Assembly (NCBI GenBank): GCA_018696595.1
Contig: JABHQW010000008.1
Coordinates: 320,001-384,000, forward strand
DNA length: 64,000 nucleotides
From: Candidatus Woesearchaeota archaeon
GTDB taxonomy: Archaea; Nanobdellota; Nanobdellia; Woesearchaeales; GW2011-AR9
Direction: 5' to 3'
The notes under the pieces were generated by a model. That model ran no database searches. It was not told the origin of the DNA and worked only from the letters and a program-made list of their open reading frames with translations. Shown in pieces: positions 2,845 through 55,883 of this stretch (within the stretch, counting starts at the first letter, position 1; every line of letters starts with the position of its first letter). Made by a program: the position numbers and the translations under genes.

Positions 2845-3129
2845 TTATTCCTCTTTCAAAGCTGCTTCTAATTTCTTTTCTTCAAAGCCAACAACTACAT
2901 TTTCTTTAACCAATGTTTTTATGATTTCTCCATCTTCTTCTTTCTCTTCAAAGAATTTGACAATAGTTACAGGTGTAGCCATTTGATGAGATTTTTCAAT
3001 CATTTCATCTCTAGCAGAATCACTTTCAGTAAGATCATGTTCGATAAAAGAAATCTTTTTCTTTTTCATCCATGTTTTTAATTTTTCGCACCAAGCGCAC
3101 GTTGGTATTGAATAAACATTAACTTCCAT
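2845..3129 (-). CDS. Glutaredoxin/NrdH-YruB-like redoxin
   Basis: YSIPTCAWC CxxC motif, TPV cis-Pro and VVGF. Start moved to the ATG at 3129. Confidence 0.85.
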   Translation of the reverse strand: MEVNVYSIPTCAWCEKLKTWMKKKKISFIEHDLTESDSARDEMIEKSHQMATPVTIVKFFEEKEEDGEIIKTLVKENVVVGFEEKKLEAALKEE

Positions 3130-3204
3130 TTTTATAAACCTCAAATCGTTTTCTAACACTAAATAAAGATAACTTTTATATATAGTTTTTCTTTTATTTA
3201 GTTT

Positions 3205-3555
3205 ATGAATGATAAAATCTGGGCTACGATGAATGTTTCTCTAGTTTTGGTAGCATTGATTTTAACTTTAACTTTGTTTGAAGTAGAACTGCCTACGTTA
3301 GGGCAAGCGAAATATGCTTTAGACAAATCAGAACCTTTATGCATAGTTAATTGGCAAGATTCTTACAATGAATGGAATGATCTAGATTCTTGTTGTGTTG
3401 AAGCAAGGAAACAGTTAGATTGTTCTGAAGGAGAATGGTATTATCAAGACAAAACCGTAGAGTGGCAATGTAAAACCGGTTCTGGAAATGTATTAAAGTA
3501 CTGGTTGAATGATAAAGCTTACAATTATTGCAGACAATTGAATATTTGGAGATAA
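3205..3555 (+). CDS. Small membrane-anchored Cys-rich hypothetical protein
   Basis: One N-terminal hydrophobic segment and 6 Cys in the exported part; stop codon abuts the GH3 start. Confidence 0.65.
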   Translation: MNDKIWATMNVSLVLVALILTLTLFEVELPTLGQAKYALDKSEPLCIVNWQDSYNEWNDLDSCCVEARKQLDCSEGEWYYQDKTVEWQCKTGSGNVLKYWLNDKAYNYCRQLNIWR

Positions 3556-18953: not shown

Positions 18954-19279
18954 ATAGGTAGGGCGGAATAAGCCGCCTTTTGTCAAACCCAAACAATTAA
19001 CAATGTAATTGCGATGGTTTGTTTTAGCATTCTACTAAGCGTTGAACCAACTTGCACTGGTTAGTATTCGCCGTTTCATCGCTCCCATACAACATAGTCA
19101 TGGGGTTAACTCATTGCTTTCTCAAGCAACTTCGCCACTATCATCCCGATGTATGGACGTGTCGTTTCTGAGCCATGGACAGCCATTTCTGACTCTCACT
19201 TCCGTGAGTAACCTTTCATAGTGGGCGGACTTTCCTAAGCGAATAAATTCACCTTCTGCTAAATACCGCTCCTACCTAT
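18954..19279 (-). ncRNA. rnpB: RNase P RNA (archaeal, type A-like)
   Basis: P1 ataggtaggagcgg/ccgccctacctat; CR-I aggaaagtccgcccac; cagaaacgacacg; gatgaaacggc; agtgcaag; gcttagtagaatgc; CR-V acaaaaggcggcttat; BRE-TATA about 25 nt upstream. Confidence 0.93.
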
Positions 19280-33994: not shown

Positions 33995-35578
33995 ATGAAG
34001 TACAAACTAAAAGGTATATTTACCAATTGGAGAGTAATTTTCCTAATCATTTTTCTAATCTTTTCAGTCTTTGCAATTAAGCCACAAATACTTGGCAATG
34101 AAGGAGTAGCAATTAAGAACATTGCCCAAAACTCTTCAGCAGAATTTGCAGGGTTGGAAAGTCCTTCATCCAACTTACCGCCGTTATCAAAAGAAAGAAT
34201 TTTAAGCATTAATGGTGAAACTGTAAAAAGTCCTGACAATTATTATGAAATAGTTTCTGCATTAAAAGAAGACAGAACTGTTATTGTTAAAACAAACAAA
34301 GGCAAGTATGATTTATTAACAAAAACTAATGAAGCAGGAGTTGTTGATTTGGGAATGACTGTTTTTGAAATTCCTTCCTCTAATCTGAAGAAAGGTTTAG
34401 ATTTAGAAGGTGGAACTAGAGTTTTATTAAAACCTGAAGGGGAAGTTTCTGAAGAAGATTTAGAAACAACTCTTGACAATTTAAAAGAAAGATTAAACGC
34501 TTATGGGTTGAGTGATGTTGTTATTAGAACAGTTTCTGATTTGGAAGGAGACGATTATATTTTAATTGAAATTGCTGGTGGTAACGAAGGAGATGTTGAA
34601 CAGCTTAAAGAACAAGGAAAATTTGAGGCTAAGATCGGTAACAGTACTGTTTTCTTTGGTGGTAAGAAAGATATAACCTATGTTTGTAAAAGTACTGACT
34701 GTTCTGGAATTGATCCCAGAGTGGGTTGTTATGAAGTTACTGAAGGTTATGCTTGTGGTTTTTATTTTGGAATTACTTTAACTGAAGAAGCAGCTGAAAG
34801 GCAGGCTAAAGCAACAGATCTGTTAACTGTTTTAACTGGTGAAAGTGGTGGCACTTACCTAAGTGATGATATTGTTCTTTACTTAGATGATAATGAAGTT
34901 GATCGGTTAAGAATTGGTGCTGATCTTAAAGGAAAAGCTACAACCAATATCCAAATCTCTGGTTCTGGTTCTGGTCCTACTGAAATTGATGCATTAAATA
35001 ATGCTTTAGATAACATGAAGCGGTTACAAACAATTATTATTACTGGGAGTCTTCCTGTAAAATTAAACATTGTTAAGATGGATAACATTTCTCCATCTTT
35101 AGGGAAAGAATTTCTGAACAACATTATTTTTGTTGGATTATTAGCAATCCTGGCAGTTGTTACTGTTGTTCTAATCAGATACAGAAAAATAAAAGTTGTT
35201 ATCCCAATGGTTCTGACTATGGTTTCTGAGATTGTATTGATTCTCGGATTTGCTGCCCTTGTTGGATGGAACTTAGATTTGGCAGCGATTGCTGGTATTA
35301 TTATTGTTGCTGGTACGGGGGTCGATCATTTGATTGTTATTACAGATGAAACTCTTAAGGGAGAAGTAATCTCAGATTGGAAAAAGAGAATTAAAAATGC
35401 AATGTTTATTGTTGTTGGTGCTTATTTAACAACCTGTGCTGGTATGTTGCCGTTATGGTTTGCAGGCGCAGGATTATTGAAAGGTTTTGCTTTTACTACA
35501 ATTATTGGGATCTCTTTTGGGGTTCTAATTGCTAGACCTGCTTATGCAACAATGATTGAACATTTATTGAAAGATTAA
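33995..35578 (+). CDS. secD: Protein-export membrane protein SecD with an N-terminal PDZ-like insertion
   Basis: KKGLDLEGG, ERLNAYGLSD, GSLPV, ISPSLG, DLAAIAGII...GTGVDH. Confidence 0.92.
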   Translation: MKYKLKGIFTNWRVIFLIIFLIFSVFAIKPQILGNEGVAIKNIAQNSSAEFAGLESPSSNLPPLSKERILSINGETVKSPDNYYEIVSALKEDRTVIVKTNKGKYDLLTKTNEAGVVDLGMTVFEIPSSNLKKGLDLEGGTRVLLKPEGEVSEEDLETTLDNLKERLNAYGLSDVVIRTVSDLEGDDYILIEIAGGNEGDVEQLKEQGKFEAKIGNSTVFFGGKKDITYVCKSTDCSGIDPRVGCYEVTEGYACGFYFGITLTEEAAERQAKATDLLTVLTGESGGTYLSDDIVLYLDDNEVDRLRIGADLKGKATTNIQISGSGSGPTEIDALNNALDNMKRLQTIIITGSLPVKLNIVKMDNISPSLGKEFLNNIIFVGLLAILAVVTVVLIRYRKIKVVIPMVLTMVSEIVLILGFAALVGWNLDLAAIAGIIIVAGTGVDHLIVITDETLKGEVISDWKKRIKNAMFIVVGAYLTTCAGMLPLWFAGAGLLKGFAFTTIIGISFGVLIARPAYATMIEHLLKD

Positions 35579-45196: not shown

Positions 45197-45520
45197 TTAG
45201 TAAAATCCGTCATTATCTATGTGGATCTTAATATTTTCTGCAGAAATTTTTACTGAAGCACAATGTCCGTCTATGCCTCTAATCCCTTCTATCTTTTTAA
45301 CTAACTTTATTGCTTCGTCTGAATCAATATCTTTAATTGAAATAATATCAGCAGGTTTAATCTTGGCATGTTCTCTTATTGACATGATGAGGTGATATTT
45401 ATTTTCTTTTTCATATGGAGTTCTTTCTTCGTCAAAAATGCTGAGGTCAATTTCTAGGTTAACTTTATCAGGTAATAATTTCCTGACTTCTTCTTCCTCA
45501 AAAAATTTGCCATATGTCAT
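45197..45520 (-). CDS. Hypothetical protein
   Basis: 107-aa ORF with a TATA box upstream on the - strand. Confidence 0.55.
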   Translation of the reverse strand: MTYGKFFEEEEVRKLLPDKVNLEIDLSIFDEERTPYEKENKYHLIMSIREHAKIKPADIISIKDIDSDEAIKLVKKIEGIRGIDGHCASVKISAENIKIHIDNDGFY

Positions 45521-45606
45521 AATAAAGATTTTTTAAACACTTATATTTAAATTTTTAGTTTTAAAACAAAAAACTTAATAAATGAACTTAGTTCTTAGTT
45601 GTTTGT

Positions 45607-45743
45607 GGGGACATAGTATAACCTGGCTAGTATAGGAGCCTCCAGTAATGGAGAGTTGAGTCTTACGGCGATGATAAACTTTTCCTGAAGCAAGCTTTAG
45701 ATCTGGGTTCGAATTTGTAAAAACGAAAGTCCCAGTGTCCCCA
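45607..45743 (+). tRNA. trnW: tRNA-Trp(CCA) with a 47-nt intron at 37/38 (45646-45692) and a 16-nt T-loop intron at 59/60 (45714-45729)
   Basis: Acceptor GGGGACA/TGTCCCC, anticodon arm GGAGC-CT-CCA-G^A-GCTTT, T arm CTGGG-TTCGAA^T-CCCAG; BHB ttcg/cgaa with aat and agt bulges. Confidence 0.9.
45646..45692 (+). ncRNA. tRNA-Trp intron with box C/D guide-like features
   Basis: tggag guide before TTGA (D'-like), short gtc/ggc stem, ATGATAA (C'-like), CTGA (D). Confidence 0.65.
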
Positions 45744-47019: not shown

Positions 47020-47060
47020 CGAAACTTTTATATATTGGGTGTTACTTTTGAGTAGAAAAT
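47020..47060 (+). promoter_or_regulatory. BRE-TATA promoter with downstream AGTAGAAAAT, shared with 30843-30883
   Basis: cgaaacttttatatattgggtgttacttttgagtagaaaat. Confidence 0.55.
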
Positions 47061-47095
47061 AGTCAAAAATCTTATTTTTATGGGGGAAATTTAAA

Positions 47096-48850
47096 ATGAA
47101 TATTAGAAAAATTGGAAGAAATGTTCTTAATGTTAGTAAATATACTGTTGCTGGTGCTACTTTGGGTGCTGGTTTATTTTTTGGTGGTCAAGCTTTAGCT
47201 GAAGAACCAAAAGATGTTGTTGAGCAACCTGACGCTTATGTAGAAGTTCAATCTGAAGTTCAGCCTGAACAAAGAGATCTTTATGATACTCAAACAGCTG
47301 AAGTTGCTGCGCCTCTTGAAGTTACTGTAACTCCTGAAGTTACTAATTATGAAACTCAATCAGCTCCTGAAGTCGTTGCACCTCTTGATGTTCAAACACC
47401 TGATGTTGCTACACCTCTTGAAGTTGCTGTAACTCCTGATACTCCTTCTCCGAGTTTCTCTTGGGGTGATTTGCTGAACGTGAATGGGCAAACTGTTATG
47501 CAAACTCCAACTGTAGAGCCTGTTGCAGAAACTAATCCCGTAGATTACAAGGGAACAACTCCTGCGGTTGCAGATCCGGATGTAGCAATTGTTAATCCTG
47601 CAGAACCCGTTCTAGAACCACAATCTCCTATTCCTGTTAATGAGGATGGAACTGCTTACAAGCTTGGACAAAAACCTGTTGTCGCTGATACTGTTGCAGG
47701 ACCTAATGCTGTTGATTACAAAGGAACAACTCCCGTAGTTGAACCAGCTGTTGCAGATAATCCTGTAGCTCCTTTAGAAGAAAAAGTTGCTGAAGTTAAA
47801 ACAGAAACACCTTCTCATGCTGGGAAATTCTCAGTAAGTGGATGTGAAAAAGGACAAGAAGCTTATTTAGTTGCAACCGAAGACGGAAGTAACTTGAAAG
47901 CAGAATGTAAAACTCCTAAGAAGAAAGGGCCAAGATGTGTTGAACAGTATGAAGGAAATGGTCGATGCATTGAACCCGTTTTAGCAGAATCTCATAATGT
48001 GCTTACTCCTGCTGTAAAAGGATTATGTCCTGGAACAACTCTATGTTATGATAGTTCTGAAGTTGACAATCTTGGTGAACAAATTGCTTTAGTTGCAAGA
48101 GTTTCTGAAGATAATAGAACCTATATCCATCAATTGGATGAATCTGTTAGCCAAAATGGTCAAAATCTTAGTGAGTTAAGTGAAGTTGTTGATCAAAATG
48201 AACAAATTATTGATGAGTTAGATACTGCAGTTGATAAAAACTCTCGTGGTATTGGTTCTCTTGATAAAAAAGTTTCTGATCAATATAAAGTTAAATCTAC
48301 TGATAAAAATAATGTTGAAGTTAACTTAAATCTTAGAGGAACGGTTTCTGCCGGAATTGGTGCTGACTCAGACTCAATTGCTGTTTACATTGAACCTGAA
48401 TTAAGTGTTGGCGGAACTTTCGGAGAACATTTCGGATTATTTGGTTATGTTAACGGAAATATTCCTGCATATGACCCTTCAGAAACTGATAACCATGAAA
48501 ATGATTTAGGAATCATGACTGAAAATGTAGATACTGAAACAAACACTTCTCGAAGAGCTGGAGCTGGTTTAATGGCTAGGTTTCCTGTTGCTGATGGTGC
48601 TGTTACTCCTTATGCTAAAGTAGGAGCTGCTTTTATGCAAACTGAAGCAAGTAAAGATATTTCTCGTAATGGGGAAGAAATTGATGCCCTGTCTGACAAT
48701 TACAATGGCGTTGGTTTAGAAGGCGCATTAGGAATTGACTTTGACTTTGGTCAACCAGGCGGAATTGTTTTAGGTTTAGAAGGAAGAGCAAATTCCTTTG
48801 GTGGCGGATACGGCGCAGGATCTGGAATGTTAGGATACACTTTCAAATAG
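47096..48850 (+). CDS. Secreted protein: P/V/T-rich repeats, Cys domain, coiled-coil stalk, C-terminal OmpA/OmpX-like 8-strand beta-barrel
   Basis: Signal peptide ...GQALA^EE; barrel region 48311-48847 with RAGAGLMARF, VTPYAKVGAAF, GLEGALGIDF and terminal LGYTFK. Confidence 0.72.
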   Translation: MNIRKIGRNVLNVSKYTVAGATLGAGLFFGGQALAEEPKDVVEQPDAYVEVQSEVQPEQRDLYDTQTAEVAAPLEVTVTPEVTNYETQSAPEVVAPLDVQTPDVATPLEVAVTPDTPSPSFSWGDLLNVNGQTVMQTPTVEPVAETNPVDYKGTTPAVADPDVAIVNPAEPVLEPQSPIPVNEDGTAYKLGQKPVVADTVAGPNAVDYKGTTPVVEPAVADNPVAPLEEKVAEVKTETPSHAGKFSVSGCEKGQEAYLVATEDGSNLKAECKTPKKKGPRCVEQYEGNGRCIEPVLAESHNVLTPAVKGLCPGTTLCYDSSEVDNLGEQIALVARVSEDNRTYIHQLDESVSQNGQNLSELSEVVDQNEQIIDELDTAVDKNSRGIGSLDKKVSDQYKVKSTDKNNVEVNLNLRGTVSAGIGADSDSIAVYIEPELSVGGTFGEHFGLFGYVNGNIPAYDPSETDNHENDLGIMTENVDTETNTSRRAGAGLMARFPVADGAVTPYAKVGAAFMQTEASKDISRNGEEIDALSDNYNGVGLEGALGIDFDFGQPGGIVLGLEGRANSFGGGYGAGSGMLGYTFK

Positions 48851-48874: not shown

Positions 48875-51529
48875 ATGAAAAATACTTTTACTTTTTTTAC
48901 AATTTTCCTATTTGTACTATCTATTGTTCCATTAGCAGCAGCAGCAGATGTTTCTGTTCAAGCTGAATGGTCAGTTAATGGAGAAGCTGCAGGTAAAATA
49001 TTAAATGCTGAAACTGGAGAAGGAACTACTTTCGCAGTGATGGTTAATGCTTTAAATGATAATTTAAACGATTATAACTTCTTTGTTAAAGTTTACGATG
49101 GCAGTTATGATGAGATGGTTAATCCTGGTTGGGAAACTACAAACGTAGAATCTTTCCCTGGCGGAACAACTATGTATACTGTTAATTATAATGCTCCTTT
49201 AACCGAAGGAACTTACTTTATTGTTGCTTCAGCATACTATGCTCAAGAAAACGATGAAGGATTTGATACACTAACATTAATTGTTACAGAAGCTCCTTGT
49301 TTAGATACAGACGATGACGGCGTTTGTGATGAAGATGAAATCTTGGGATGTACAGACACAGATGCAAATAATTACAATCCAAATGCAACTGAAGAAGACG
49401 ACAGTTGTGAATACGATTGTTTAGATTCCGATGGCGATGGTGTTTGTGATGAAGATGAAATCTTAGGGTGTACTGATTCAGAAGCAGAGAATTTTAATCC
49501 AAATGCAACAGAAGAAGATAATAACTGTGAATATGCTTGTACAGATTCTGACAACGATGGTGTTTGTGATGAAGATGATCTTTGTCCAGATGAACCTGGG
49601 CTATTAGATAATAATGGTTGTCCTGAAGAAGTTATTAATGAAGCTCCCATTATTGAAGTTTTTGGAACTAACAAAATTAATGAAATGAGTTCATTAAACT
49701 TAATCGTTGAAATTGAAGATGAGGATATTGTTAACTTAGAAGTTAAGGTTGAAAAATGTGAGATTTATATTTTTGGGCTTTGCTTATTTGCAAGTTACAC
49801 AGATGCTCCTGAAAATTCAGAATTAACTTTTGTTTCTGAAAACAAATATGCTTTTACTTGGACTCCGGATTACCGTTTTGTAAAACATCCTGCAACAGAA
49901 AGATCTATTCGATTAGTTTTTATTGCCGATGACGGAGAAGCAAAAGATTATAATTTACATAAAGTAACTGTTAACGATGTTAATCAATTACCTGTTTTAA
50001 GTTCAGAAGGCGTAGAAGATGTTGATGAAGGAAAAAGCTTTGTTGCTACTTTTACTGCCATTGATGCTGATGAAGAAGACGTCTTGGACTTGGGGATTAT
50101 TTTAATGGGATATGAATTCATGGGTAATGATCTTCCTGATTGGATCTCTATGGAAAGTATTGCAAAGAATACAATTCAATTAACCGTAACTCCTGATTGT
50201 GATAGTGCTGGAGATTACTTCCTTAGATTTACTGCTAACGATGGACTATTCTTGGCGGAACTAATGGAACCATTTACTGTTACCGAAGCTTGTGATGCTC
50301 CAATTCTTGGATGTATGGATGAGTCTGCATTAAACTACAATCCTGAAGCAACCGAAGATGATGAAAGTTGTGAATATACTTGTAGTGATGTGGATAACGA
50401 CGGAGTTTGTGATGAAAATGATCTTTGTCCGCATGAAGTGGGTACTGAGAATAACAAAGGATGTCCTGAAGAACCTGTTGCTGATAATATGGTTCCTGTT
50501 CTAAGAGGATTAATGGATCAATCTGTTTATGCAGAAGAGAAATTAACATTTCAAATTCATGTGACTGATGACAATGATAAAAACATGGACTTAATTGTTG
50601 AAGGACTTCCAGAAGGAGCAGAAGTATTTGCTTCTAATCGGGTTGCACCTTTGCCTTTAAAAAACATCATGCAGAAATTATTTTTGAAAACAGAGTATAA
50701 ACACACTTTTATTTTCAAATGGGTTCCAACAGAAGCACAAGTTGGTGAATACTTAGTAGGATTTACTGCTGACGATGGTTTAGCTAAATCGGAACAAAAG
50801 ACAATCAAAATCACTGTATTAGAACAACCAGTTGAACCTTGTGTTGATACAGATTCTGATGGTATTTGCGACGAAGTTGATCTTTGTCCGTTAGATCCAG
50901 AAGATTTTGATGGTATTGAAGACGAAGATGGTTGTCCTGAAGATGATCCAGTTAACCATGCACCTTTAATCTTATCAAATCCAACTACTGTTGCAACCGA
51001 GAATCATGATTACACTTACCAATTTTTGGCGGAAGATCCAGACGGAGACGAGATAACTGTAACTTTAGTTGACGCTCCTGAAGGGATGACTATGTCTGAA
51101 GATTGGTTAGTTGAATGGATTCCTGAAGATTTAACTAATGGCAAAGTGGCTATTAGTGTAACTGACGGAGAGTTTGTGGTAACACAGAAGTTTACAATTG
51201 GCGTTGCTGAAGCTTACAAGAATGTTAAGCTAGCATCCGTACAATTGGCGGCTGAAGAAGTTGTTGCTGGTGGTTATTTGTCTACTCAAATCAAAGTAGA
51301 AAATAACGGCGAGAAAGATATGGGTGATTTAAAGATTAGTGTGATTGTTCCTGAGCTTGGATTGAAGAAGTCTGTGAGTGAGTTTGACTTGAAACCAGGG
51401 CAAAGTAAGAACAAGAACATTAATCTACAGTTACCTTATTACGCTTACTCTGGTGAGTATCTAGTTAAGGTAAGTGTTAGTAACAGCAATTTCCATGAAC
51501 AAACCTATAGGTTGGTAACAATCTATTAG
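48875..51529 (+). CDS. Large acidic surface protein with Ca-binding DxDxDG/GCTD repeats, cadherin/Ig-like domains and a C-terminal CARDB-like domain
   Basis: Signal peptide; CxDxDxDGVCDEDE.LGCTD..A.NYNP.ATEEDD.CEY repeats; NHAPLI.S.P, EDPDGDEIT, VENNGEKD. Confidence 0.8.
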   Translation: MKNTFTFFTIFLFVLSIVPLAAAADVSVQAEWSVNGEAAGKILNAETGEGTTFAVMVNALNDNLNDYNFFVKVYDGSYDEMVNPGWETTNVESFPGGTTMYTVNYNAPLTEGTYFIVASAYYAQENDEGFDTLTLIVTEAPCLDTDDDGVCDEDEILGCTDTDANNYNPNATEEDDSCEYDCLDSDGDGVCDEDEILGCTDSEAENFNPNATEEDNNCEYACTDSDNDGVCDEDDLCPDEPGLLDNNGCPEEVINEAPIIEVFGTNKINEMSSLNLIVEIEDEDIVNLEVKVEKCEIYIFGLCLFASYTDAPENSELTFVSENKYAFTWTPDYRFVKHPATERSIRLVFIADDGEAKDYNLHKVTVNDVNQLPVLSSEGVEDVDEGKSFVATFTAIDADEEDVLDLGIILMGYEFMGNDLPDWISMESIAKNTIQLTVTPDCDSAGDYFLRFTANDGLFLAELMEPFTVTEACDAPILGCMDESALNYNPEATEDDESCEYTCSDVDNDGVCDENDLCPHEVGTENNKGCPEEPVADNMVPVLRGLMDQSVYAEEKLTFQIHVTDDNDKNMDLIVEGLPEGAEVFASNRVAPLPLKNIMQKLFLKTEYKHTFIFKWVPTEAQVGEYLVGFTADDGLAKSEQKTIKITVLEQPVEPCVDTDSDGICDEVDLCPLDPEDFDGIEDEDGCPEDDPVNHAPLILSNPTTVATENHDYTYQFLAEDPDGDEITVTLVDAPEGMTMSEDWLVEWIPEDLTNGKVAISVTDGEFVVTQKFTIGVAEAYKNVKLASVQLAAEEVVAGGYLSTQIKVENNGEKDMGDLKISVIVPELGLKKSVSEFDLKPGQSKNKNINLQLPYYAYSGEYLVKVSVSNSNFHEQTYRLVTIY
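49298..49630 (+). repeat. 120-nt coding tandem repeat (40-aa GCTD/TSP3-like module)
   Basis: Unit starts at 49298, 49418 and 49538 (third copy diverges); dispersed copies near 50310-50465 and 50839. Confidence 0.85.
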
Positions 51530-51675
51530 GTATGACTATTGCGGGGTAGCTATTAAGTGTAGCTACTCAACAATACTAAACCAACGAAAACTTTATAAAC
51601 CAAAGCGGTTTTAAAGACTAAAACACAAAAAAATAACATTCATAAAAGGATAAATTTTTTTTGGAGGAAGAAAAA

Positions 51676-52926
51676 ATGAAAAAACTTTTAAGTATAATGG
51701 CTTTATTCGTAATTAGCTTATTGACTTTATCAATGGTTAGTGCATTAGATGCAAATGACCTAGTAATTAAGTCTATTGAAGTTAATGGCCACAATGTAGA
51801 AGATGGCGAAGTTCTTGCTGTTGAAGAAGGAGAAACTTTAGATGTTGAAGTTGGCTTATTAGCTAACGCTGGTGCAGAAAATATTGAAGTGGAAGTTGAA
51901 ATTTCAGGTTATGAATACAACGACCAAGAAGATATGGAAGCTACCGCACACATCGATAATATCCAAGCTGGAAATACAAAATATTTTGACTTGGAAGTAA
52001 CTTTGCCTAAGAAATTAGACAAGGATGAATACATGTTAAGAGTTCGTGTAATGGATAAGAATACTGCGGCAATTACCCACAATATTTTATTATCAATCGA
52101 ACCTACAAGACATGGAATCGATATTGCAGACGTTGCTTTATCCCCTGGAGAAACCCAAAAAGCTGGTAGATCTTTTTTAGCTACTGTTCTATTGGAAAAC
52201 TTCGGAGATAAAACTGAGAAAGACGTTAAAGTTGAAGTTGCAATTCCTGCATTAGGAGTTAAAGCTACTGAATACGTTGACGTTGTTGTAACCGATAACA
52301 ATAATGTAGATTATGAAGACGTTCCTGAAATGTTCTTACCTCTTCCTGCTACTGCAGAAGCTGGTGCTTACGACATGATCGTTACAGTTAAATACGATGA
52401 CTTAAGGGAAACTGTTAGCCAAACTTACAAAGTTAATGTTTTAGCTAACGAACTATTCCAAAAGTCTGACAAGTTAGTTTTAGCTGTTGGTCCGGAAAGT
52501 CAAACTGTTGCTGCTGGTAACACTGCTAGTTATGCTGTTGCATTAACAAACGCAGGATCAACTTCTAAAGCTTATGTTTTAGATGTAGTTACTGGTGACT
52601 GGGCTACCGCAACTGTTAGTGATGCTTTAGTTGTTTTAGAACCTGGAAAGAACAAAGTTGTTCAAGTAGATGTAACCGCTGCTAGTAATGCTGTTGAAGG
52701 TCAACACGTTGCAAGCGTTGCTATTATGTCTGGTGACGAAGTTCTTGAAACCATCGTTCTAAAAGCAAACGTAGCTGGCACCGCTAGTGAGAGTTTTAGC
52801 TTAAGAAACGGTTTGGAAATCGCTTTAATCGTCTTAGTTGTTCTATTAGTAATCATTGGTTTAATCATTGGTTTCAGTAGATTAAGAAAAGACGACGAAG
52901 ACGAAGAAGAACAAACTTACTACTAA
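51676..52926 (+). CDS. S-layer-like protein with tandem Ig/CARDB-type domains and a C-terminal TM anchor
   Basis: ggagg SD and ATG at 51676; signal peptide; LENFGDK.EKDV.V.V.IP.LG; TM followed by an acidic tail EEEQTYY. Confidence 0.72.
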   Translation: MKKLLSIMALFVISLLTLSMVSALDANDLVIKSIEVNGHNVEDGEVLAVEEGETLDVEVGLLANAGAENIEVEVEISGYEYNDQEDMEATAHIDNIQAGNTKYFDLEVTLPKKLDKDEYMLRVRVMDKNTAAITHNILLSIEPTRHGIDIADVALSPGETQKAGRSFLATVLLENFGDKTEKDVKVEVAIPALGVKATEYVDVVVTDNNNVDYEDVPEMFLPLPATAEAGAYDMIVTVKYDDLRETVSQTYKVNVLANELFQKSDKLVLAVGPESQTVAAGNTASYAVALTNAGSTSKAYVLDVVTGDWATATVSDALVVLEPGKNKVVQVDVTAASNAVEGQHVASVAIMSGDEVLETIVLKANVAGTASESFSLRNGLEIALIVLVVLLVIIGLIIGFSRLRKDDEDEEEQTYY

Positions 52927-54977: not shown

Positions 54978-55883
54978 TTAAAAGGTAGTTCCAACAAATC
55001 CACCTAAGTTGTAATCAAGAGTTCCTTCATTTCCAACTTCAGTTAGGTCTGCAGCAGCTCCAATTTGGTATTTGTCCATTAATGTTACTCCTGCTCTTAA
55101 TTTCTGAACACTAAACTGGTGGCCAGTTTCTCCAACACTAGTTAGGTCCTCTAAGTTTATTAGCAAATCAACTTTTTCTCCTAACTCTGGGCTGTAGCTT
55201 AGGTTTACTACAAACTCTCCGTCTGGGCTTTCCATTGTTTTTACTGTTGCTAAGGCATACACTGCAAAATCTCCTAGTGCTTTGAAGTATTGCAAACCTG
55301 CTCTTGGAATTACTCCCATTCCTGGTGCTGCCTGTACTTCTCCTACAATGTCTAAGCCATCAACTAAGTTATAGCTCAAGTCCATTAAACCAAAAAAGCT
55401 TACTTCTCCTTCATAGTCTGAAGTGGTCATTTGTCTCAAGAACAAATTGGTTTTTGGAGCGATACTTGTGGACACTTTTGTGTCTAAGGTTGTTGATTGG
55501 TGTCCTGCTGATAATTCTACTGATCCGCTTGCTGGGGTTTCATCTGCTAGGCCAACTCCTGGTGCTAATATTGCACAAGCCACTCCTGCTGCATAAGCTA
55601 AGTTTCTGGGGGTGGCTAATCTTTGTAATGCTTCTTTTGCTTCTGCAGTTATTTTCTCTAAGATAGTTGGTTCTCTAACTAATGCGATCCCTCTTTTATC
55701 GCTAATAACTTTTCCTTCTCCTGCAACTTCTTGTATAATTCTCTCTTCTGCAGTAAGTGGTGCTTCAGCAACTTTTGCTTCTTCATCAATATCTTCTGGA
55801 AGATATAATCTTCCTTCGGTTTTCCAATATCTTTTTCCTCCAGTTTCAATAAGTTCTGAAGGTAAAATCATTTCATTTGTCAT
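54978..55883 (-). CDS. Protein with a long n-region, an internal signal-like segment and a predicted ~12-strand amphipathic beta-barrel ending in Phe
   Basis: LAYAAGVACAILAPGVGLA^DE, then alternating strands (GLMDLSYNL, PRAGLQYF, LRAGVTL, YNLGGFVGTTF); ggagg SD. Confidence 0.7.
   Translation of the reverse strand: MTNEMILPSELIETGGKRYWKTEGRLYLPEDIDEEAKVAEAPLTAEERIIQEVAGEGKVISDKRGIALVREPTILEKITAEAKEALQRLATPRNLAYAAGVACAILAPGVGLADETPASGSVELSAGHQSTTLDTKVSTSIAPKTNLFLRQMTTSDYEGEVSFFGLMDLSYNLVDGLDIVGEVQAAPGMGVIPRAGLQYFKALGDFAVYALATVKTMESPDGEFVVNLSYSPELGEKVDLLINLEDLTSVGETGHQFSVQKLRAGVTLMDKYQIGAAADLTEVGNEGTLDYNLGGFVGTTF

What the first reader, a model, noticed from the sequence alone, without database searches (positions are those of the whole stretch)
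47096..48850. OmpA/OmpX-like 8-stranded beta-barrel at the end of a stalked secreted protein in an archaeon (barrel candidate 2)
Eight amphipathic strands can be read with alternating long acidic loops and short turns: VEVNLNLRGTVSAGIG, IAVYIEPELSVGGTF, FGLFGYVNGNI, RRAGAGLMARF, VTPYAKVGAAF, GVGLEGALGIDFDF, IVLGLEGRANS, GAGSGMLGYTF. TPYAKVG and the terminal GYTF are hallmarks of Gram-negative OMP barrels (established). Upstream lie an Asn-containing heptad stalk (48116-48287) reminiscent of trimeric adhesin stalks, a Cys domain and P/V/T repeats. TM beta-barrels are not an accepted feature of archaeal envelopes. It heads a surface-protein cluster and has an archaeal promoter.
Basis: partly seen in the sequence, partly recalled or inferred. 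Interest (0 to 1): 0.85.

Follow-up and report, generated by a model that had tools for sequence, protein, structure and literature searches.

The report
Bacterial-type membrane barrel in an archaeon
A small marine archaeon encodes a secreted, stalked protein that ends in an eight-stranded barrel of the kind otherwise known only from bacterial outer membranes, which matters because archaea are not thought to have such proteins or the machinery to insert them.

Summary
ORF 47096-48850 (584 aa) has five parts: a signal peptide, an acidic P/V/T linker, a Cys-rich module, eleven heptads of coiled coil, and a C-terminal 8-stranded beta-barrel.

Fold: two independent models place the barrel with OmpA, OmpX, Ail and OmpW (Foldseek E 3e-6; VIA Z 15). 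Soluble avidin-type barrels score Z 9-10.

Sequence: only membrane-beta-barrel Pfam families are hit, in three homologs, and all below the curated cut-off.

Surface: every strand has a charge-free, variable hydrophobic face and a Gly/charge-rich face that carries the invariant residues. That is the pattern of a lipid-facing exterior, but the 3-D orientation is inferred because no coordinates were available.

Origin: the gene is archaeal. Archaeal RNase P lies on the same contig, synteny is conserved in several independent assemblies, and contigs from four other runs bridge both junctions without mismatch.

Distribution: the family is tiny and confined to three genera of one archaeal family. 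It sits next to that family's core surface-protein gene.

Machinery: no Omp85/BamA or TamB was found.

Stalk: Asn recurs every 14 residues at heptad position d, and the stalk models as a parallel trimer (0.81; best control 0.27).

Best reading: a BAM-independent membrane anchor. Which membrane it enters is unknown, and insertion is untested.

First readers noted this same stretch in overlapping windows of this genome, not on other DNA.

The parts
47027..47034 (+). TATA-box-like TTTATATA, 62 nt upstream of the ATG, preceded by a purine-rich cgaaa
   Evidence: Read directly from the sequence. Consensus match only; no transcript data.
47082..47086 (+). GGGGG ribosome-binding-site-like motif, 9 nt before the ATG
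   Evidence: Read directly from the sequence.
47096..48850 (+). Whole gene, 584 aa (P0001)
   Evidence: Single copy in the genome.
47096..47200 (+). Sec-type signal peptide (aa 1-35: basic n-region, Gly/Ala-rich h-region, ALA|EE cleavage motif)
   Evidence: Sequence inspection. Homologs all have equivalent AxA signal peptides. No predictor was available.
47201..47815 (+). Acidic P/V/T/E-rich low-complexity linker (aa 36-240, net charge -29). It is specific to this genome's version of the protein.
   Evidence: Composition; weak repeats; absent from homologs.
47816..48061 (+). Cys-rich beta module (aa 241-322). Conserved four-Cys motif: C281-x5-G-x-G-x-C291 ... G-x-C311-x-G-x3-C317-Y-D.
   Evidence: Alignment A3 invariant and near-invariant columns. 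Small beta hairpins at pLDDT about 60-70. No Pfam family.
48062..48283 (+). Coiled-coil stalk: 11 heptads (aa 323-396), position a = I/V, position d alternating Leu/Asn (N340, N354, N368, N382)
   Evidence: Register analysis. Helices 326-354 and 358-396. Parallel in-register trimer model, ipSAE 0.81 against best control 0.27.
48314..48844 (+). Eight-stranded OMP-type beta-barrel (aa 407-583), ending GYTF-K
   Evidence: AF2 pLDDT 74.6, pTM 0.67. Foldseek to OmpA, Ail and OmpX, E 3e-6 to 5e-4. VIA Z 14-15 to OmpW, OmpA, OprF, PagL and NspA. ESM Atlas look-alikes. Register analysis.
48653..48679 (+). Tip of the membrane-distal beta5-beta6 hairpin (K520-E528, family consensus KDITRxGET). It is the most conserved 9-mer of the domain.
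   Evidence: I522 is invariant; R524 and G526 are nearly invariant.
48875..51529 (+). Conserved downstream neighbour: 884-aa secreted protein with Asp-rich Cys-flanked repeats, He_PIG/Big_9 Ig-like domains and a CARDB/NPCBM_assoc-like end. The intergenic gap is only 24 nt with a GAGGT motif, so it is probably co-transcribed.
   Evidence: PKD/TSP_3 homologs follow the barrel gene in L003, L006, L008 and L020.
51661..52926 (+). Conserved neighbour: 421-aa surface protein with NPCBM_assoc domains and a C-terminal transmembrane anchor. It is a core gene of the archaeal family.
   Evidence: Present in 60 of 61 genomes of the family at 45-73% identity.

Best explanation
This is a genuine archaeal gene for a secreted, probably trimeric, head-stalk-anchor protein. 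Its C-terminal domain is a distant member of the bacterial OMP beta-barrel superfamily (OmpX/Ail/OmpA type, 8 strands) with a lipid-facing hydrophobic belt.

Proposed mechanism:
1. Sec export and signal-peptide cleavage (inferred from sequence).
2. Three chains zip into a parallel coiled coil about 11 nm long, with Asn layers at position d (sequence shown; trimer supported by a model only).
3. Each chain's barrel folds into a lipid bilayer lying outside the cell's own cytoplasmic membrane, without BAM, as OmpA and OmpX can do in vitro (inferred).
4. The stalk, Cys module and linker stay on the side of insertion. This follows from the topology, because both barrel termini lie on the short-turn side.
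5. The conserved KDITRxGE hairpin projects on the far side (inferred).

So the barrel is the only membrane anchor of the mature protein.

Which bilayer it enters is not determined. My odds are about 35% for the membrane of a partner or host cell (an attachment device of a small-genome symbiont), about 20% for an outer lipid layer of the archaeon itself (an OmpM-like tether), and about 10% for its own cytoplasmic membrane.

The gene is an accessory, fast-evolving addition beside the lineage's core surface-protein gene. It probably derives ultimately from bacteria.
For: Fold:
- AF2 on the family alignment gives an all-beta domain (pLDDT 74.6, pTM 0.67), reproduced in a longer construct.
- Foldseek top hits are all 8-stranded OMPs: OmpA, Ail, OmpX and NspA, E 3e-6 to 5e-4, probability 1.00.
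- In VIA-align, OmpW scores Z 15.2, OmpA 15.1, OprF 14.9, PagL 14.4 and NspA 14.0, against Z 9-10 for avidins.
- The ESM Atlas, using its own model and language-model features, returns only bacterial OMP_b-brl, Ail_Lom, Opacity and OmpA clusters, TM 0.62-0.77.

Sequence:
- Barrel-only homologs hit only membrane-beta-barrel families: OMP_b-brl in 3 of 11 (best E 3.3e-6), plus Autotransporter, Ail_Lom, OmpA_membrane and BBP2.
- Exhaustive phmmer reaches one bona fide bacterial OMP_b-brl protein at E 2.2e-5 against 1.84 billion sequences.
- The family profile's only PDB matches are OmpX and Lom, aligned to the terminal GYxF. They are marginal, E 0.5-0.8.

Exterior:
- The 47 hydrophobic-face positions are 0.4% charged and variable (entropy 1.72; one position at 90% or more conserved).
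- The 42 other-face positions are 28% charged and 22% Gly, and carry nine positions at 90% or more conserved, including R486, G510, A512, E542, G546 and G580 (entropy 1.34; Mann-Whitney p 0.008).
- Side-chain volume is about 3545 A3 for the hydrophobic face and 2430 A3 for the other face, against a crude interior of 2950-3390 A3.
- A C-terminal aromatic residue is kept across the family.

Stalk: heptads and N@d. Trimer ipSAE 0.81, best control 0.27, runs agree in at least 97% of contacts, partner pLDDT at least 89. The mark was reached by 21 of 30 solved pairs and 0 of 23 single chains; the calibration used two copies, not three.

Archaeal and real:
- Archaeal RNase P is on the contig.
- The RTC, permease, barrel, PKD/TSP3 and NPCBM_assoc gene order recurs in independent assemblies, next to aIF5B, aEF-1beta and GatD.
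- Contigs from four runs not flagged as possible sources bridge both gene junctions with zero differences.

Accessory:
- 4 of 401 genomes of the phylum sample have it, all in one family, and 1 of 201 in the order sample.
- The same-genus ortholog is strongly diverged.
- The neighbouring 421-aa gene is in 60 of 61 genomes of the family.

No insertion machinery: no Omp85 and no TamB.
Against: - P0001 itself hits no Pfam or NCBIfam OMP model, and all homolog hits are below gathering scores.
- hhalign of the profile against the single bacterial OMP gives only 12.9% probability.
- Model confidence is moderate. The last strand is Gly-rich with pLDDT below 50.
- No coordinates were available, so 'hydrophobic face points outward' rests on conservation and a crude volume estimate, not on geometry.
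- No transmembrane beta-barrel has been shown in any archaeal envelope, and no insertase is present.
- The long acidic hairpins would have to cross a bilayer unaided.
- The mature N-terminus has no evident attachment to the producing cell.
- The coiled-coil trimer pass may reflect likeness to solved coiled coils, and it does not exclude a dimer.
- There are no expression data.
Confidence: 0.6

Rival explanations
1. Outer-membrane tether of a diderm-like archaeon. The barrels sit in a second lipid membrane of the archaeon itself. The trimeric stalk, Cys module and linker span the inter-membrane space and bind the S-layer or cell body, as OmpM/SlpA tether the outer membrane in Terrabacteria.
For: - The module-stalk-barrel order, with the stalk on the turn side of the barrel, is the OmpM arrangement (PMC10628300).
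- A second, unrelated OMP-like barrel lies 6 kb away.
- The gene sits beside the core surface-protein gene.
- In relatives, an upstream bitopic protein with an extracellular coiled coil could be the inner partner.
Against: - The family is found in only three genera of one archaeal family. An outer membrane would be expected to leave conserved OMPs across the clade.
- No Omp85 or TamB was found.
- No SLH or other wall-binding domain is present.
- The upstream partner was not found in this genome.
- The second barrel was not found in five relatives with a single-protein query.
Confidence: 0.2
2. Soluble or ligand-binding 8-stranded barrel of the avidin, YceI or lipocalin type. The hydrophobic face forms the core, the domain is not in a membrane, and the resemblance to OMPs is only topological.
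For: - Soluble meander barrels also match the model: designed barrels at Z 11-13, avidins at Z 9-10, YceI at Z 8.9.
- Both barrel types show alternating hydrophobicity.
- The orientation could not be read from coordinates.
Against: - OMPs outrank all natural soluble barrels.
- All sequence-level and Atlas hits are to OMP families only.
- The invariant residues, including buried-type charges R486 and E542 and several Gly, lie on the polar face, while the hydrophobic face is variable. That is the reverse of a soluble core.
- The hydrophobic face is probably too bulky for the lumen.
- All eight strands carry an uninterrupted, charge-free stripe of 5-6 residues.
- A C-terminal aromatic residue is conserved.
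Confidence: 0.12
3. C-terminal anchor in the archaeon's own cytoplasmic membrane. After export the barrel re-inserts from outside, so the stalk and Cys head project from the cell like a fibre, with the barrel replacing the usual C-terminal helix anchor.
For: - This is the simplest topology. The stalk emerges on the insertion side, and neither a second membrane nor a partner cell is needed.
- The stalk length of about 11 nm is in the range of archaeal S-layer spacings (my own knowledge).
- The neighbouring surface protein is anchored in that membrane by a helix.
Against: - No beta-barrel is known in any energised cytoplasmic membrane.
- The two long hairpins, with 8 and 6 acidic residues, would have to move into a negative-inside cytoplasm.
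- The most conserved motif would then be cytoplasmic with no obvious partner.
Confidence: 0.1
4. Assembly artefact or bacterial contamination: a bacterial OMP gene wrongly joined to an archaeal contig.
For: The fold and its nearest sequence relatives are otherwise exclusively bacterial.
Against: - Contigs from four other runs cross the permease-barrel and barrel-downstream junctions with zero mismatches and even depth.
- The same gene order recurs in at least five independent assemblies with archaeal flanks.
- GC content is similar to the flanks.
- Contamination is 0.38%.
- An archaeal-type TATA box is present.
Confidence: 0.01

Closest known systems
OmpX / Ail / Lom and the OmpA transmembrane domain (Pfam PF13505 OMP_b-brl, PF06316, PF01389; membrane beta-barrel clan)
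   Same: - Eight antiparallel strands in a meander.
- Termini and short turns on one side; long strands projecting as a sheet on the other, as in OmpX and Ail.
- A charge-free hydrophobic stripe on every strand.
- A Gly/charge-rich conserved other face.
- A terminal aromatic residue.
- Best structural and sequence matches.
   Different: - Encoded by an archaeon with no BamA.
- Below every Pfam cut-off.
- Fused C-terminally to a coiled-coil stalk.
- The projecting hairpin tip is the most conserved element rather than hypervariable.
- The terminal Phe is followed by Lys in this protein.
OmpM (Veillonella) and SlpA (Deinococcus): SLH domain, trimeric coiled-coil stalk, C-terminal outer-membrane beta-barrel (PMC10628300, PMC9388160)
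   Same: The same order of parts: an N-terminal envelope-side module, a trimeric coiled-coil stalk, and a C-terminal barrel with the stalk on the non-loop side. The architecture suits linking a membrane to another envelope layer.
   Different: - No SLH domain; a four-Cys module takes its place.
- The barrel has 8 strands without a pore, rather than a large porin barrel.
- No sequence similarity was detected.
- The host is an archaeon without peptidoglycan (my own knowledge for archaea in general).
Trimeric autotransporter adhesins (YadA family)
   Same: A head-stalk-anchor plan. The coiled coil has polar residues concentrated at position d: 5 of 11 here, against 1 of 11 at position a. TAAs show about 45% and 5% (PMC13580157, citing Hartmann 2009). 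Asn recurs at d.
   Different: In TAAs each chain gives 4 strands to one shared 12-stranded barrel through which the passenger is exported. Here each chain has its own closed 8-stranded barrel, which cannot pass a passenger. There is no YadA-anchor hit.
Possible PopA-superfamily relative in Altiarchaeales (passing remark in PMC12228718)
   Same: It is the only mention found in the searched library of a bacterial OMP-like barrel in a DPANN archaeon.
   Different: A different barrel family (a porin-like, lipid-trapping oligomer) in a different archaeal lineage. It is not analysed further in that paper, and no relation to this family was tested here.

Membership tests
OMP_b-brl superfamily (PF13505 / membrane beta-barrel clan) | Sequence match to the family model at or above the curated cut-off | tested here: not met
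   P0001 gives no hit. Three homologs hit PF13505 at E 3.3e-6 to 6e-3, but at 17-26 bits against a cut-off of 28.7.
OMP_b-brl superfamily (PF13505 / membrane beta-barrel clan) | Closed 8-stranded antiparallel meander barrel | tested here: met
   AF2 models. Foldseek to OmpA, Ail and OmpX, probability 1.00. VIA Z 14-15, rmsd 2.5-3.6 over 126-158 residues. Atlas TM 0.62-0.77.
OMP_b-brl superfamily (PF13505 / membrane beta-barrel clan) | Alternating pattern with a charge-free hydrophobic stripe on every strand and a polar, Gly-rich conserved opposite face | tested here: met
   Hydrophobic face: 47 positions, 0.4% charged. Other face: 42 positions, 28% charged, 22% Gly, nine positions at 90% or more conserved. 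Mann-Whitney p 0.008 for entropy.
OMP_b-brl superfamily (PF13505 / membrane beta-barrel clan) | The hydrophobic stripe points outward and forms a belt about 25-30 A high in three dimensions | not testable with these tools
   Model coordinates are not exposed. Inferred only from the conservation asymmetry and a crude volume estimate.
OMP_b-brl superfamily (PF13505 / membrane beta-barrel clan) | C-terminal aromatic residue (beta-signal) in the hydrophobic register | tested here: met
   F583 is followed by K584 in P0001. Phe is terminal in 8 of 11 aligned homologs. Y/F, L and aliphatic residues lie at -2, -4 and -6.
OMP_b-brl superfamily (PF13505 / membrane beta-barrel clan) | Assembly by BamA/Omp85 (or TAM) in an outer membrane | tested here: not met
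   No PF01103 and no PF04357 in a 97%-complete genome, while the controls ring. POTRA gives only a sub-cut-off hit of the kind also seen in control archaea.
OMP_b-brl superfamily (PF13505 / membrane beta-barrel clan) | Actual residence in a lipid bilayer | not testable with these tools
   Needs refolding and liposome assays, fractionation or imaging.
Trimeric autotransporter adhesins | YadA-type anchor: four strands per chain forming one 12-stranded barrel | tested here: not met
   Each chain models as a complete 8-stranded barrel. There is no YadA_anchor hit.
Trimeric autotransporter adhesins | Trimeric coiled-coil stalk rich in polar residues (Asn) at position d | tested here: met
   Position d is L V N L N L N L N L Q and position a is V I S I V L V I V I V. 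The trimer model passes at 0.81 against 0.27. This is a model, not a measurement.
OmpM / SlpA outer-membrane tethers | N-terminal SLH domain binding the cell wall | tested here: not met
   No SLH hit at E up to 1.
OmpM / SlpA outer-membrane tethers | Coiled-coil stalk directly N-terminal to the barrel | tested here: met
   Helices run to residue 396 and the first barrel strand starts at 407.
OmpM / SlpA outer-membrane tethers | Large porin-type barrel (16 strands or more) | tested here: not met
   Eight strands.

The most novel reading that the evidence does not exclude
This marine small-genome archaeal lineage makes true transmembrane beta-barrel proteins of the bacterial OMP type and inserts them without BAM. 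It might place them in a second, outer lipid membrane of its own, tethered by this trimeric stalk. That would make it a diderm archaeon with bacterial-style OMPs. Alternatively it might use them as self-inserting harpoons in a partner cell's membrane. Either way these would be the first transmembrane beta-barrels shown for the domain Archaea. The probability given is for a functional membrane-embedded barrel in either setting. The own-outer-membrane version alone is about 0.2.
Probability: 0.55. Interest if true: 0.92.

Novelty: new variant of a known kind. Interest (0 to 1): 0.78.

Why it matters
Transmembrane beta-barrels are regarded as a signature of bacterial outer membranes and of the organelles derived from them. 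The archaea known to have double membranes have not been shown to use them. A conserved, clearly archaeal family with an OMP-type barrel and no BAM would bear on three questions:
- whether small barrels can be deployed by self-insertion in nature;
- how small-genome (DPANN-like) archaea attach to or breach partner membranes;
- whether any archaeon has a bacterial-style outer compartment.

The domain is small (about 185 aa) and has a defined set of natural homologs. The claim is therefore directly testable by refolding and liposome assays, without cultivating the organism.

Tried and rejected
- Sequence search of the barrel against PDB chains: no hit. NCBIfam: none.
- The search for related loci with alignments A1 and A2 failed for lack of a conserved stretch. 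With the single protein it found no relative in genome contigs, so no organism names were obtained. The taxon is known only as coded family f1, in an order with more than 130 families of 0.6-1.7 Mb genomes.
- The word-indexed homolog search added two family members but no bacterial relatives. That is a limit of the index, not evidence of absence.
- hhalign of the family profile against one bacterial OMP: probability 12.9%, E 0.0022. Too weak to use.
- The upstream bitopic coiled-coil protein seen in relatives was not found in this genome with one query.
- The second barrel candidate was not found in five relatives with one query. An empty answer shows little.
- No RNA holder was listed among public runs, so nothing can be said about expression.
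- The POTRA hit at window 34424-34552 (E 0.018, below cut-off) is dismissed, because the same model rings in control archaea.
- Considered and rejected: a classical autotransporter (an 8-stranded barrel cannot export a passenger); a lipoprotein (no lipobox Cys near the signal peptide); a decaying pseudogene relic (intact ORFs and conserved motifs in all members).
- Literature searches found no report of an OMP-type barrel family in archaea, apart from one passing remark.
Full report
OBSERVATION. ORF 47096-48850 (+) encodes 584 aa. By inspection and composition it has five parts:
- a Sec-type signal peptide (aa 1-35, ...QALA|EEP);
- an acidic P/V/T/E-rich low-complexity linker (aa 36-240, net charge -29) with only weak repeats;
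- a Cys-containing region (aa 241-322);
- a heptad region (aa 323-396);
- a Gly-rich, beta-rich C-terminal domain (aa 400-584).

Upstream there is a TTTATATA at 47027-47034 and a GGGGG at 47082-47086. The next gene starts 24 nt after the stop, behind a GAGGT motif.

ORGANISM AND ASSEMBLY. The window is part of a contig of more than 384 kb. The genome is 1.19 Mb in 8 contigs, 97% complete, with 0.38% contamination. An archaeal RNase P RNA lies at 18957-19276. The order sample contains more than 130 families of 0.6-1.7 Mb genomes, which fits a DPANN-type lineage; that assignment is my inference. The stretch is held by marine metagenome runs from at least 14 studies.

Contigs from four runs not flagged as possible sources cross both junctions with zero differences and even depth. 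X7 record 9 and X9 record 26 cross the permease-barrel junction. X9 record 27, X8 record 20 and X10 record 6 cross the barrel-downstream junction. Homologs lie in the same gene order in independent assemblies: RNA cyclase, Trp/Tyr-type permease, [extra genes], barrel protein, PKD/TSP3 protein, NPCBM_assoc protein. The flanks carry aIF5B, aEF-1beta, Trm1 and GatD. A bacterial chimera is excluded.

FOLD. AlphaFold2 on the family alignment gives an all-beta domain with pLDDT 74.6 and pTM 0.67. Three strands are very long, 21-24 residues.
- Foldseek against the PDB returns only 8-stranded outer-membrane proteins at the top: OmpA, Ail, NspA and OmpX, E 3.4e-6 to 5e-4, probability 1.00, TM up to 0.56/0.69 for OmpX.
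- VIA-align against 48,161 representatives gives OmpW Z 15.2 (rmsd 3.2, 158 aligned), OmpA 15.1 (2.5, 134), OprF 14.9, a designed transmembrane barrel 14.7, PagL 14.4 and NspA 14.0. Designed soluble barrels reach 11-13 and avidins 9-10.
- The ESM Atlas holds its own model of the protein. Its structural neighbours (TM 0.62-0.77) and its language-model neighbours are all bacterial OMP_b-brl, Ail/Lom, Opacity, OmpA or PagP clusters.

SEQUENCE RELATION. P0001 hits no Pfam, NCBIfam or PDB sequence. An exhaustive phmmer search of 1.84 billion cluster representatives finds 12 proteins. One is a near-identical fragment. Ten are true family members with the same architecture. One is a bona fide bacterial tandem OMP_b-brl protein, at E 2.2e-5. 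When family members are scanned singly, they touch only membrane-beta-barrel families: OMP_b-brl in 3 of 11 (best E 3.3e-6), Autotransporter, Ail_Lom, OmpA_membrane and BBP2. All are below the gathering scores. The family profile's only PDB matches are OmpX and Lom (E 0.5-0.8), aligned through to the C-terminal GYxF. I read this as distant homology to the OMP barrel superfamily. It is not membership of any curated family.

INSIDE OR OUTSIDE. I therefore used the strand registers across the alignment. All eight strands show strict alternation.
- Hydrophobic face: 47 positions, 79% hydrophobic, 0.4% charged, variable (mean entropy 1.72), with one position at 90% or more conserved.
- Other face: 42 positions, 28% charged, 22% Gly, mean entropy 1.34 (Mann-Whitney p 0.008). 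It holds nine positions at 90% or more conserved, among them R486, G510, A512, E542, G546 and G580.

A soluble barrel would have a conserved hydrophobic core and a variable polar surface; here the pattern is the reverse. It matches the conserved polar, Gly-rich lumen and variable lipid face of small OMPs. Summed side-chain volume is about 3545 A3 for the hydrophobic face and 2430 A3 for the other, against a crude lumen estimate of 2950-3390 A3. Each stripe spans about 11 residues, or about 27-29 A. Aromatic residues gather at both ends, and a C-terminal aromatic residue is kept. This is good indirect evidence for a lipid-facing exterior, but it is not a geometric proof.

An unexpected point is that the most conserved 9-mer of the whole domain is the tip of the membrane-distal beta5-beta6 hairpin (K520-E528, consensus KDITRxGET). 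In bacterial OMPs, by my own knowledge, such loops are usually the most variable part.

THE REST OF THE PROTEIN. The family shares a four-Cys module (C-x5-G-x-G-x-C ... G-x-C-x-G-x3-C-Y-D; C281, C291, C311 and C317 here). It is duplicated in one homolog and has no Pfam family. The stalk has eleven unbroken heptads: position a reads V I S I V L V I V I V and position d reads L V N L N L N L N L Q. Polar residues are thus 1 of 11 at a and 5 of 11 at d. That is the bias reported for trimeric autotransporter stalks, about 5% against 45% (PMC13580157, citing Hartmann et al. 2009).

A three-copy model of aa 322-402 gives a parallel, in-register bundle. The ipSAE is 0.81 and the best control 0.27. 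The runs agree in at least 97% of contacts and the partner pLDDT is at least 89. The mark was reached by 21 of 30 solved pairs and 0 of 23 single chains, and the calibration used two copies. This supports oligomerisation. It may owe something to likeness to solved coiled coils, and it does not exclude a dimer.

In the longer AlphaFold model the stalk ends at residue 396 and the first strand starts at 407. As in OmpA-type barrels, both termini lie on the short-turn side, so the stalk leaves the barrel on the side from which it would insert.

DISTRIBUTION AND CONTEXT. The genome has one copy. In an even sample of the order, only this genome of 201 has the family. In a sample of the phylum, 4 of 401 have it, all in one family. 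A same-genus genome has a syntenic 494-aa ortholog whose barrel scores only 34 bits against the profile, so the domain evolves fast. By contrast, the 421-aa anchored surface protein two genes downstream is present in 60 of 61 genomes of the family at 45-73% identity. It is presumably the main envelope protein. The barrel gene is therefore an accessory gene lodged next to the core surface gene.

Relatives have one to three extra genes upstream. One of them is a bitopic protein with a large cytoplasmic part and an extracellular coiled coil. It was not found in this genome. This genome's protein instead carries the long P/V/T linker.

INSERTION MACHINERY. There is no Omp85/BamA (PF01103) and no TamB (PF04357), with positive controls ringing. 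POTRA gives only noise.

A second, unrelated protein at 54978-55883 (-) also looks like a bacterial outer-membrane barrel. Its Atlas neighbours are Bacteroidota clusters of about 200 aa at TM 0.9, and CopB, DUF2490 and KdgM-like clusters.

MECHANISM. Shown: a real archaeal gene, the domain architecture, an OMP-type barrel fold, the register asymmetry, the N@d heptads, the narrow distribution, and the absence of BAM. Inferred: export and cleavage, trimerisation, the outward hydrophobic belt, and insertion into a bilayer.

After cleavage the mature protein has no other hydrophobic segment, so the barrel would be its only anchor. An 8-stranded barrel has no channel wide enough to export the N-terminal part, so that part stays on the insertion side. 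OmpA and OmpX fold spontaneously into bilayers in vitro (established knowledge), so the absence of BAM is not fatal.

Three placements are possible.
- A partner or host cell's membrane (about 35%). The accessory, patchy, fast-evolving nature of the gene fits a host-interaction device of a small-genome symbiont. This needs the Cys head or linker to hold on to the producing cell, which is unshown.
- An outer lipid layer of the archaeon itself, an OmpM-like tether (about 20%). The architecture and the second barrel favour this. The narrow distribution argues against it.
- The cell's own cytoplasmic membrane (about 10%). This is the simplest topology, but it is without precedent, and two acidic hairpins would have to enter a negative-inside cytoplasm.

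A soluble barrel remains possible (about 12%).

COMPARISON WITH THE KNOWN. The protein works most like an OmpX/Ail-type barrel joined to a TAA-like stalk, in the part order of OmpM/SlpA. It is a member of none of these. It misses every Pfam cut-off, has no SLH domain, has no YadA anchor, and its host has no BAM.

The searched literature holds no report of an OMP-type barrel family in archaea. The only exception is a passing remark about a possible PopA relative in Altiarchaeales (PMC12228718).

VERDICT. It is a new variant of a known kind: an OMP-superfamily barrel in a new domain of life, in a new architecture, without the known assembly machinery. The key claim, residence in a membrane, is untested but directly testable. 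Interest 0.78.

Noticed in passing
window 54978-55883 (-): A 301-aa protein (P0017) has a charged leader of about 95 aa, one hydrophobic segment, and a C-terminal region of about 190 aa ending GGFVGTTF. The ESM Atlas places that region with bacterial outer-membrane barrels: Bacteroidota clusters of about 200 aa at TM 0.9, and CopB, DUF2490 and KdgM/OmpL-like clusters. It is a second, unrelated OMP-like barrel 6 kb from the first. It was not found in five relatives with a single-protein query.
   Followed up: partly
window 51661-52926 (+): A 421-aa protein with NPCBM_assoc domains, a C-terminal transmembrane helix and an acidic tail is a core gene of the archaeal family (60 of 61 genomes, 45-73% identity). 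It is probably the main S-layer or surface protein of the lineage.
   Followed up: partly
L003 8392-9972; L006 1565-4327; L008 6178-8775: In relatives, a large bitopic protein sits directly upstream of the barrel gene. It has a cytoplasmic N-terminal part, one transmembrane helix and an extracellular Cys-containing coiled coil ending YVD[LI]KVK. It is a candidate inner partner of the stalk. It was not found in this genome with one query.
   Followed up: partly
window 48653-48679 (+), aa 520-528: The tip of the membrane-distal hairpin (consensus KDITRxGET) is the most conserved 9-mer of the barrel domain, the opposite of the usual hypervariability of OMP surface loops. This suggests a conserved binding site on the far side of the membrane.
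   Followed up: partly
window 48875-51529 (+): An 884-aa secreted protein has repeated Asp-rich, Cys-flanked units (DxDxDGVCDEDE), He_PIG/Big_9/cadherin-like Ig domains and a CARDB/NPCBM_assoc-like end. It is probably co-transcribed with the barrel gene (24-nt gap, GAGGT motif). Homologs in relatives hit TSP_3 and PKD.
   Followed up: partly
protein P0002 (97 aa, from the representative library): This is a near-identical fragment of the barrel's C-terminal half from another assembly. It lacks 14 residues that P0001 has (IDALSDNYNGVGLE, aa 529-542) and reads a single Ser between E528 and G543. It could be a strain-level deletion in the beta6 strand region or an assembly or gene-call artefact.
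   Followed up: no
window 18957-19276 (-): Archaeal RNase P RNA (RF00373, 138.7 bits). Used here only as a domain marker.
   Followed up: no
window 51448-52215 and 45304-45687: In three independent marine runs the summed contig depth rises 5- to 15-fold over the start of the core surface-protein gene and over the tRNA region upstream of the permease. Abundant related populations apparently share these conserved stretches while lacking, or differing in, the barrel gene region.
   Followed up: no
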